Shown piece by piece: positions 3,480 to 3,590 of a stretch of 3,982 nt of DNA. The notes under the pieces were generated by a model. That model saw only the letters and a program-made list of their open reading frames with translations, ran no database searches and had not been told where the DNA came from. The stretch comes from Escherichia coli (GTDB lineage: Bacteria > Pseudomonadota > Gammaproteobacteria > Enterobacterales > Enterobacteriaceae): the NCBI RefSeq assembly GCF_003334255.1, contig NZ_QOWU01000112.1. One strand, 5' to 3'. Position 1 is the stretch's first letter, and every line of letters begins with the position of its first letter. The position numbers and the translations under genes were made by a program.

Positions 3480-3590
3480 ATGCGAAAGTTCAAAATTATT
3501 ATTGAAACGGGAATAGCTGGTGGAGATTTTGAGGATGTATTCGAAGTGGACGATGACGCAACACCTGAGGAAATTCATGACGGAGCATAA
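3480..3590 (+). CDS. Small acidic ORF, 36 aa (MRKFKIIIETGIAGGDFEDVFEVDDDATPEEIHDGA), hypothetical
   Basis: ATG 3480 to TAA 3588-3590, in the SD-hairpin-ATG context. No recognisable domain. An ORF this short is weak evidence alone. Confidence 0.3.
   Translation: MRKFKIIIETGIAGGDFEDVFEVDDDATPEEIHDGA
3516..3523 (+). other. Chi octamer GCTGGTGG
   Basis: Exact match to the E. coli Chi sequence on the plus strand, inside the small ORF. A single occurrence, so functional relevance is unknown. Confidence 0.4.

What the first reader, a model, noticed from the sequence alone, without database searches (positions are those of the whole stretch)
3516..3523. Chi octamer inside the ORF-poor tail
GCTGGTGG occurs once, on the plus strand. 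Chi sites modulate RecBCD activity and recombination. A single site has limited significance but is relevant if this region is a recombination or insertion boundary.
Basis: seen in the sequence. Interest (0 to 1): 0.15.

Follow-up and report, generated by a model that had tools for sequence, protein, structure and literature searches.

The report
Ordinary Chi site in decayed prophage gene
The eight-letter Chi recombination signal is really there, but it is a routine one, made by three ordinary codons of a broken small phage gene, at the density and orientation normal for E. coli and its Qin-type prophages, and it does not mark a recombination or insertion boundary.

Summary
GCTGGTGG is present once, at 3516-3523 on the + strand. 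The window differs from the immunity/replication region of the Qin-type lambdoid prophage of E. coli ATCC 8739 by one base change and a 9-bp duplication.

The octamer is codons 13-15 (GCT GGT GGA, Ala-Gly-Gly) of a DUF7167/phrog_1997 gene, 3480-3662, disabled by a TAA at 3588. The "ORF-poor tail" is four decayed nin-region genes.

The 48-kb prophage has 5 Chi on the top strand and 2 on the bottom (1 per 6.9 kb, 71% co-oriented). The flanks have 10 and 4 (1 per 4.0 kb, 71%). Observed/expected on a trinucleotide model is about 2.3, the published value for E. coli and for lambdoid prophages.

The site points the active way in both settings: towards dif, 80 kb away on the leading strand, and towards the lambda-type cos, 13.3 kb away. 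All prophage Chi sites lie in the right 42% of the virion map, a published pattern.

Close homologues keep the octamer in 71 of 80 loci. The other nine carry the synonymous GCC, and distant homologues lack it, so nothing suggests selection on this site.

Mosaic joints, the K-12 deletion ends and an IS66 insertion all lie elsewhere.

Verdict: real, ordinary, already known.

The parts
3516..3523 (+). Canonical Chi octamer 5'-GCTGGTGG-3'. It is codons 13-15 (GCT GGT GGA, Ala-Gly-Gly) of the DUF7167 pseudogene.
   Evidence: single exact match on the + strand; the reading frame follows (ATG at 3480).
3480..3662 (+). DUF7167 / phrog_1997 small acidic phage gene, a pseudogene. Codon 37 is TAA (3588-3590) where intact homologues have AAA.
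   Evidence: RefSeq annotation 'DUF7167 family protein, internal stop'. phrog_1997 E = 1.7e-27. Pfam PF23768 E = 3e-14 on an intact homologue. AAA in 54 and TAA in 26 of 80 homologous loci.
3410..3479 (+). Conserved leader upstream of the gene: CCCTC 3438-3442, AGGAGG 3451-3456, hairpin CCGCCC-GAAA-GGGCGG 3457-3472, then 7 nt to the ATG. A mosaic joint lies at its 3' end, about 3473.
   Evidence: Alignment (in an O121 prophage the same leader precedes a different gene). Fold. Hairpin variants, including one G-C to A-T double change.
1764..1895 (+). Replication-origin iterons: five repeats spaced about 23 bp apart, core GGTCAAAATG, inside the O-like gene. They lie 1.6 kb to the left of the Chi site.
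   Evidence: The O-like gene is 1436-2401 (phrog_391 E = 1e-91).
220..941 (.). Immunity region: dicA (220-627, - strand) and dicC (711-941, + strand). These genes identify the element as a Qin-type prophage.
2861..3340 (+). Decayed SAM-dependent DNA methyltransferase gene: AAA to TAA at 3215-3217, then a frameshift near 3295.
   Evidence: phrog_954 E = 7e-72 across the stop. (comparison with the intact O121 copy; AAA in 9 and TAA in 23 loci).
3640..3831 (+). Decayed phrog_519-family gene, TGG to TAG at 3763-3765.
3828..3982 (+). Decayed phrog_660-family gene with TAG at 3936-3938 where homologues have CAG or ATG. It runs off the end of the window.

Best explanation
The site is a genuine but unremarkable Chi. 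The octamer is made by the synonymous codon choice GCT-GGT-GGA for Ala-Gly-Gly in a small, now broken, DUF7167 gene. That gene lies in the nin-like region of a Qin-type prophage with a lambda-type cos, resident next to the E. coli terminus.

Mechanism, from established RecBCD biology. RecBCD enters a double-strand end lying to the right of the site in window coordinates. That end could be the right cos end of cut phage DNA, or a broken replication fork or other break on the dif-proximal side. The enzyme travels leftwards and meets the octamer from its 3' side. It is then switched from degradation to loading RecA on the 3' tail. This spares the DNA to the left (origin and immunity region) and stimulates exchange there.

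What is shown here is the sequence, its orientation relative to cos and dif, and its density. Hotspot activity in vivo is inferred.

The site is one of 5 top-strand and 2 bottom-strand Chi in the prophage. That density and orientation bias match the surrounding chromosome and published values for lambdoid prophages without a RecBCD inhibitor. Nothing singles this site out, and it is best read as an incidental member of that background.
For: Identity of the element:
- The window differs from ATCC 8739 by 1 SNP and a 9-bp duplication; 266 E. coli genomes carry at least 80% of it.

Counts:
- Prophage, 47,964 bp: 5 top and 2 bottom Chi. Flanks up to dif, 55,708 bp: 10 and 4. Both are 71% co-oriented.
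- Poisson P(7 or fewer) = 0.09 at the flank rate and 0.18 at the K-12 rate.
- An order-2 Markov model expects 3.0 sites against 7 observed, so observed/expected is about 2.3.
- Bobay et al. report observed/expected of 2.29 for E. coli K-12 and a median of 2.30 for lambdoids.

Orientation:
- dif lies 80.2 kb to the right. KOPS motifs are 7 top / 0 bottom on the left of dif and 0 / 10 on the right. Chi flips strand at dif as well.
- An exact lambda cosN, GGGCGGCGACCT, lies 13.3 kb to the right on the same strand.
- Top-strand Chi is the active orientation for RecBCD entering at the right end (PMC12315714).

Coding origin:
- Ala13-Gly14-Gly15.

No sign of constraint on the octamer:
- 9 of 80 close homologues carry the synonymous GCC. 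That third position has 4 minority alleles among 32 distinct sequences, against a mean of 1.5 for third positions.
- Klebsiella-phage homologues encode VGG or VNG and have no Chi.
Against: - All seven prophage Chi sites, and all five on the top strand, lie in the right 42% of the virion map. The 28.4-kb structural module has none. This non-uniform distribution is what selection for Chi near the right end would produce, so the site may not be purely incidental.
- Retention in 71 of 80 homologues is compatible with weak selection, although shared ancestry explains it equally well.
- No experiment on this site exists.
Confidence: 0.72

Rival explanations
1. The site is positively selected as part of a phage strategy. 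On this reading, a Qin-type phage that lacks a RecBCD inhibitor keeps a set of cos-oriented Chi sites between its origin and cos. RecBCD entering rolling-circle tails or cut cos ends is then converted to recombination, which protects the replication region and helps form concatemers. This octamer, the first Chi to the right of the origin, would be one of that set, kept for its DNA sequence even after its host gene decayed.
For: - Six of the 7 prophage Chi sites lie between the iterons and cos. All 5 top-strand sites are in the right 42% of the virion map, and none lies in the 28.4 kb of structural genes.
- The same clustering is reported for lambdoids without inhibitors and for LLS-type phages.
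- The early-left region holds only a RecE-like exonuclease. No annealing protein or Gam/Abc2 is annotated or was found.
- All 26 pseudogene alleles retain Chi.
- A near-identical element is deposited as a complete phage, PhiR42_1.
Against: - With 5 top-strand sites the prophage falls short of the 8 or more typical of the Rec-module-less, Chi-rich class.
- The density is no higher than in the host flanks.
- The synonymous GCC variant is common among intact alleles, and distant homologues lack Chi.
- The 26 pseudogene alleles form one lineage, so their retention of Chi counts as a single event.
- The Chi-free structural module can be explained as a lambda-like module inherited without Chi.
- Cryptic prophages are expected to accumulate Chi like the rest of the chromosome.
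- I did not search all small ORFs for inhibitors.
Confidence: 0.22
2. The Chi marks, or caused, a recombination or insertion boundary at this spot.
For: - The region is highly mosaic: only 266 of the 4680 E. coli genomes that match the window carry at least 80% of it.
- Several joints (about 3473, 3377/3410, 3027, about 2850, 2339) lie within 1.2 kb to the left of the octamer, the side on which Chi stimulates exchange.
- An IS66 element sits about 165 bp to the right in some strains.
Against: - No joint coincides with the octamer.
- The joints sit at gene boundaries and at a conserved leader, which is the usual pattern of lambdoid module exchange.
- The K-12 deletion (window 1214 onwards, 4.8 kb) joins imperfect 9-bp repeats, GGAGGCTAT and GGAGCCTAT, far from the Chi.
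- IS66 insertion is transposition with a target duplication and does not involve RecBCD.
- The apparent endpoint at 3505 is an alignment artefact.
Confidence: 0.03
3. The octamer is a chance 8-mer of no consequence: never engaged by RecBCD in practice and subject to no selection at all.
For: The shuffle test gives P of about 0.08 for at least one site in the window, which is not significant. The synonymous position is polymorphic.
Against: Recognition of Chi by RecBCD is determined by sequence, and the host is E. coli. Any RecBCD passing from the right will therefore respond to it. The site lies 80 kb from dif, a region where forks converge and breaks occur. This is inference from established knowledge, not tested here.
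Confidence: 0.03

Closest known systems
E. coli chromosomal Chi sites (crossover hotspot instigator, 5'-GCTGGTGG-3', RecBCD regulator)
   Same: Exact octamer in an E. coli host. It is on the leading strand pointing from the origin towards dif, like the majority of chromosomal Chi. The local density matches the genome.
   Different: Nothing of substance differs. It lies in prophage DNA inside a pseudogene rather than in a core gene.
Chi over-representation between origin and cos in lambdoid (pro)phages lacking RecBCD inhibitors (Bobay, Touchon and Rocha 2013, PMC3784561)
   Same: Observed/expected is about 2.3 on a trinucleotide model. Chi sites are concentrated between the replication genes and the terminase/cos. 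No Gam or Abc2 is evident.
   Different: This is a single prophage, so the pattern cannot be tested statistically here. The recombinase status is ambiguous: a RecE-like exonuclease is present but no annealing protein was seen.
LLS-class lambdoid phages: no Rec module and abundant right-end, top-strand Chi (Zheng et al. 2025, PMC12315714)
   Same: Chi sites are mostly top-strand (5 of 7) and all seven lie in the right 42% of the virion map. The phage has a lambda-type cos and lambda-like structural genes.
   Different: It has only 5 (ATCC 8739) or 4 (PhiR42_1) top-strand sites, against 8 to 25 in that class. A RecE-like exonuclease gene is present.
Qin cryptic prophage of E. coli K-12 (dicA-dicC-dicB region)
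   Same: Window 1-1213 is 99.1% identical to K-12 Qin (ydfA, dicA, dicC, ydfX). The chromosomal site is the same, between rspB and ydfJ.
   Different: K-12 has lost the 4.8 kb that includes the rest of the window and this Chi site.

Membership tests
Chi site (RecBCD recognition sequence of E. coli) | Exact octamer 5'-GCTGGTGG-3' | tested here: met
   One exact match at 3516-3523 on the + strand.
Chi site (RecBCD recognition sequence of E. coli) | Resides in a host whose RecBCD recognises this octamer | tested here: met
   The window is 99.7% identical to chromosomal DNA of many E. coli strains.
Chi site (RecBCD recognition sequence of E. coli) | Oriented so that RecBCD from the likely entry point approaches from the 3' side | tested here: met
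   dif lies 80 kb to the right, and KOPS and Chi strand bias flip there. cosN lies 13.3 kb to the right on the same strand. The top strand is the active orientation.
Chi site (RecBCD recognition sequence of E. coli) | Stimulates RecBCD/RecA-dependent recombination or attenuates degradation in vivo | not testable with these tools
   This needs genetic or biochemical assays.
Chi-rich lambdoid phages without a Rec module (LLS class) | No recognisable Rec module genes | tested here: not met
   An 825-aa RecE-like exonuclease (phrog_2082, E = 0) lies in the early-left region.
Chi-rich lambdoid phages without a Rec module (LLS class) | Eight or more Chi in the active (top) orientation per genome | tested here: not met
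   5 top-strand sites in ATCC 8739 and 4 in PhiR42_1.
Inhibitor-less lambdoids that over-represent Chi (Bobay 2013) | Observed/expected above 1 on a trinucleotide model, with sites concentrated between replication genes and cos | tested here: met
   7 observed against 3.0 expected. Six of the 7 lie between the iterons and cosN.
Inhibitor-less lambdoids that over-represent Chi (Bobay 2013) | Absence of a Gam/Abc2-type RecBCD inhibitor | tested here: inconclusive
   None is annotated, and none was found among the early-left ORFs scanned. I did not scan all small ORFs with dedicated profiles.
DUF7167 (Pfam PF23768) / phrog_1997 | Significant profile match over the whole small protein | tested here: met
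   phrog_1997 E = 1.7e-27 over residues 1-57. PF23768 E = 3e-14 on the intact homologue. The window copy has an internal stop.

The most novel reading that the evidence does not exclude
The octamer may be kept by selection on the DNA itself rather than on the protein. It would then be the origin-proximal member of a small set of cos-oriented Chi sites. Those sites would let an inhibitor-less Qin-type phage, whose structural module is a lambda-like, Chi-free import, use host RecBCD for recombination-dependent concatemer formation. This would make the element an evolutionary intermediate between the lambda strategy (Rec module, no Chi) and the LLS strategy (no Rec module, many Chi).
Probability: 0.15. 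Interest if true: 0.2.

Novelty: already known. Interest (0 to 1): 0.05.

Why it matters
It matters little. The result closes a low-priority lead. The Chi is real, but its density, strand and position are what E. coli DNA and Qin-type prophages normally show. The general phenomenon, Chi enrichment between origin and cos in lambdoid prophages without RecBCD inhibitors, is already published. The only modest value is as one more example: a mosaic prophage whose lambda-like structural half is Chi-free while its early/right arm carries host-like Chi.

Tried and rejected
- Rfam scan of the whole window at E up to 1 found nothing, so no known RNA overlaps the site.
- NCBIfam gave no match for the four decayed proteins.
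- The promoter/terminator scan of 3100-3982 found nothing above shuffle expectation near the Chi. The hairpin at 3457-3472 has no T-run and is not an intrinsic terminator.
- A literature search for the deposited phage PhiR42_1 found no paper, so whether this prophage makes virions is unknown.
- The megablast endpoint at 3505 in an O121 genome looked like a joint 11 bp from Chi. Alignment shows the real joint at about 3473, followed by a chance extension.
- I considered a boxB/nut-like role for the GAAA hairpin and dropped it, because no N-type antiterminator context was seen. This is inference only.
- The whole-genome Chi count of ATCC 8739 could not be computed because regions are fetched 50 kb at a time. 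I used 144 kb around the prophage and the published K-12 figure instead.

Full report
**Observation**

The octamer GCTGGTGG is present once, at 3516-3523 on the + strand, and its reverse complement is absent. Dinucleotide-preserving shuffles of the window give a mean of 0.09 sites, and 16 of 200 shuffles contain at least one. The site is therefore only mildly unexpected for random sequence.

For E. coli DNA it is not unexpected. At the K-12 density of 1008 sites per 4.6 Mb (quoted in PMC12315714), a 3982-bp window should hold 0.87 sites, with P(at least 1) = 0.58.

**What the window is**

The whole window matches the E. coli chromosome at 99.7% identity in many strains, including ATCC 8739, W and O55:H7. 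It also matches a deposited phage record, PhiR42_1 from ECOR13. Against ATCC 8739 it differs by one SNP (677) and a 9-bp tandem duplication (944-952).

The RefSeq annotation and PHROG scans give this layout:

| Coordinates | Strand | Gene |
|---|---|---|
| 220-627 | - | dicA |
| 711-941 | + | dicC |
| 925-1455 | + | cII-like / YdaT-family gene |
| 1436-2401 | + | O-like replication initiator, with five iterons spaced about 23 bp apart at 1764-1895 |
| 2442-2864 | + | DUF977 / Ren-like gene |
| after 2861 | + | four decayed genes (next paragraph) |

This is the immunity/replication/nin region of a full-length Qin-type lambdoid prophage. It is integrated between rspB and ydfJ.

**The "ORF-poor tail"**

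The tail is coding DNA in decay. In each of the four genes the window has a nonsense codon where homologues in IMG/VR viral contigs carry a sense codon:

| Gene | Change | Position |
|---|---|---|
| Methyltransferase | AAA to TAA, plus a later frameshift | 3215 |
| DUF7167 | AAA to TAA | 3588 |
| phrog_519 family | TGG to TAG | 3763 |
| phrog_660 family | CAG or ATG to TAG | 3936 |

For each of the last three genes, which are represented in nearly all of the loci, 26 loci carry the stop.

**What the Chi is made of**

The octamer is codons 13-15 (GCT GGT GGA, Ala-Gly-Gly) of the DUF7167 gene at 3480-3662. The family assignment rests on phrog_1997 at E = 1.7e-27, Pfam PF23768 at E = 3e-14 on an intact homologue, and the RefSeq note "DUF7167 family protein, internal stop".

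Among 80 close homologues, 71 carry the octamer and 9 carry the synonymous GCC-GGT-GG, which abolishes Chi without changing the protein. That third codon position is more polymorphic than average: 4 minority alleles among 32 distinct sequences, against a mean of 1.5 for third positions. Distant homologues in Klebsiella phages encode VGG (GTT GGC GGA) or VNG at this place and have no Chi.

The octamer is thus a lineage-specific synonymous spelling inherited with the gene. I see no sign of purifying selection on it.

I joined 144 kb of ATCC 8739 sequence around the prophage and counted Chi on both strands.

| Region | Length | Chi top strand | Chi bottom strand | Density | Co-oriented |
|---|---|---|---|---|---|
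| Prophage | 47,964 bp | 5 | 2 | 1 per 6.9 kb | 71% |
| Flanks, up to dif | 55,708 bp | 10 | 4 | 1 per 4.0 kb | 71% |

- The prophage count is not significantly below the flank rate (Poisson P = 0.09) or the K-12 rate (P = 0.18).
- Against composition, an order-2 (trinucleotide) Markov model expects 3.0 sites and 7 are observed, so observed/expected is about 2.3.
- Bobay et al. report 2.29 for E. coli K-12 and a median of 2.30 for lambdoid phages and prophages.
The prophage is above random expectation, but it looks like its host and like other lambdoid prophages.

**Orientation in the chromosome**

A dif site with one mismatch to the consensus lies 80.2 kb to the right of the Chi. KOPS motifs (GGGNAGGG) are 7 on the top strand and 0 on the bottom to the left of dif, and 0 and 10 to the right. 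Chi shows the same flip, with 0 top and 5 bottom to the right of dif.

The window's + strand is therefore the leading strand of a fork moving towards dif. The Chi has the majority, repair-competent orientation.

**Orientation in the phage**

An exact lambda cosN (GGGCGGCGACCT) lies 13.3 kb to the right on the same strand, just upstream of the Nu1-like gene nohA. In lambda-type phages RecBCD enters at the right cos end, and top-strand Chi is the active orientation (Kobayashi et al. 1982 and Faulds et al. 1979, as cited in PMC12315714). This Chi is therefore also correctly oriented for the phage.

All seven prophage Chi sites lie in the right 42% of the virion map, and six lie between the iterons and cos. 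The 28.4-kb lambda-like structural module has none. That distribution is the one described by Bobay et al. and by Zheng et al..

The prophage does not fit the Chi-rich class without a Rec module. It has only 4-5 top-strand sites, against 8 or more in that class, and it carries an 825-aa RecE-like exonuclease gene. No Gam or Abc2 is annotated or was seen, but I did not search for them exhaustively.

**Boundary idea**

A spread sample of 60 of the 4728 matching E. coli records shows homology ends at window 1213, 1416, 2339, 2400, about 2840-2850, 3027, 3353, 3377 and 3505.

- K-12 Qin stops at 1213. It lacks a 4.8-kb segment that includes this Chi. The deletion joins imperfect repeats GGAGGCTAT and GGAGCCTAT.
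- The 3505 endpoint, from an O121 prophage, turns out on alignment to be a joint at about 3473, at the 3' end of a conserved leader and hairpin. After that point an unrelated gene follows.
- An IS66/ISEc22 element is inserted at 3687-3695 in some strains.
- None of these events is at the octamer, and all have ordinary explanations: exchange at gene boundaries, short-repeat deletion and transposition.

**Mechanism and verdict**

By sequence and orientation this is a competent Chi. RecBCD coming from the right would be switched at 3516-3523 from degradation to RecA loading. That protects, and promotes exchange in, the origin and immunity DNA to its left. This step is inferred from established RecBCD biology and was not tested here.

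Whether the site is maintained by selection as part of a phage strategy, or is simply part of the host-like Chi background of a long-resident, decaying prophage, cannot be settled from one locus. The polymorphic synonymous position, the host-level density and the remark in Zheng et al. that cryptic prophages accumulate Chi like the chromosome all favour the incidental reading.

The phenomenon is already known either way, and the finding deserves a low score.

**Correction to my notebook**

Entry 2 gave the Shine-Dalgarno sequence and hairpin three and two bases too far to the left. The correct coordinates are AGGAGG 3451-3456 and hairpin 3457-3472.

Noticed in passing
window 3410-3479: A conserved leader precedes the DUF7167 gene. 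It has AGGAGG (3451-3456), then a 6-bp GC hairpin with a GAAA loop (3457-3472), then 7 nt to the ATG. The Shine-Dalgarno sequence is therefore 23 nt from the start codon unless the hairpin forms, much like the hairpin-bridged ribosome-binding sites recalled from phage T4 genes 38 and 25. An upstream CCCTC (3438-3442) can pair with GGAGG. Seven homologous loci carry a compensatory G-C to A-T change in the stem. In an O121 prophage the same leader precedes an unrelated gene, so the leader also acts as a mosaic joint. There is no Rfam match.
   Followed up: partly
window 2861-3982: Four consecutive nin-region genes (methyltransferase, DUF7167, phrog_519, phrog_660) are each knocked out by a single nonsense codon (TAA, TAA, TAG, TAG). 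For each of the last three genes the stop is carried by 26 of the 80 IMG/VR loci; intact alleles exist elsewhere.
   Followed up: partly
window 1764-1895: Five iterons spaced about 23 bp apart (core GGTCAAAATG) lie inside the O-like replication gene, the likely phage origin. Two further 14-nt repeats (TACAGAGAATA[CA]AA) follow at 1900-1937.
   Followed up: partly
window 944-952: A 9-bp tandem duplication (GCTCGTGAG, adding Ala-Arg-Glu) in the cII-like/YdaT-family gene. It is absent from ATCC 8739 and PhiR42_1. Apart from one SNP at 677, it is the only difference from ATCC 8739.
   Followed up: no
window 1213 onwards; L001 21204-26004; L087 about 5204: K-12 Qin lacks a 4.8-kb segment that begins at window 1214. 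This turns the cII-like gene into the fragment annotated as ydfX. The deletion joins imperfect 9-bp repeats GGAGGCTAT and GGAGCCTAT, next to a partial ISNCY transposase gene.
   Followed up: partly
window 3687-3695; L085 3886-6341: An IS66-family element (ISEc22, about 2.45 kb) is inserted here in strains CFS3246 and N921 and two further genomes (NZ_LT838200.1, NZ_LT838196.1); strain W5-6 also carries an ISEc22 copy within the matched region. The two flanking alignment pieces overlap by 9 bp, consistent with a target-site duplication.
   Followed up: partly
L001 36832-36843 and L001 37021 to L003 about 16200: The prophage has an exact lambda cosN 12-mer and a lambda-like head/tail module of 28.4 kb that contains no Chi on either strand. 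The early/right arm carries all seven sites. This fits a mosaic of a Chi-free lambda-like module and a Chi-bearing Qin-type arm.
   Followed up: partly
L001 29124-29766 (ydfU, DUF968 gene): Four Chi octamers (two on each strand) lie within 650 bp of a single gene, ydfU. They are also present in K-12 (L087 8298-8940). This is an unusually dense, bidirectional cluster.
   Followed up: no
L086 2709-4057 (O121 prophage): In an O121 prophage the DUF7167 position is occupied by genes annotated 'sce7726 family protein' and 'beta family protein', on opposite strands. This may be an accessory or defence cargo inserted at the same nin-region joint.
   Followed up: no
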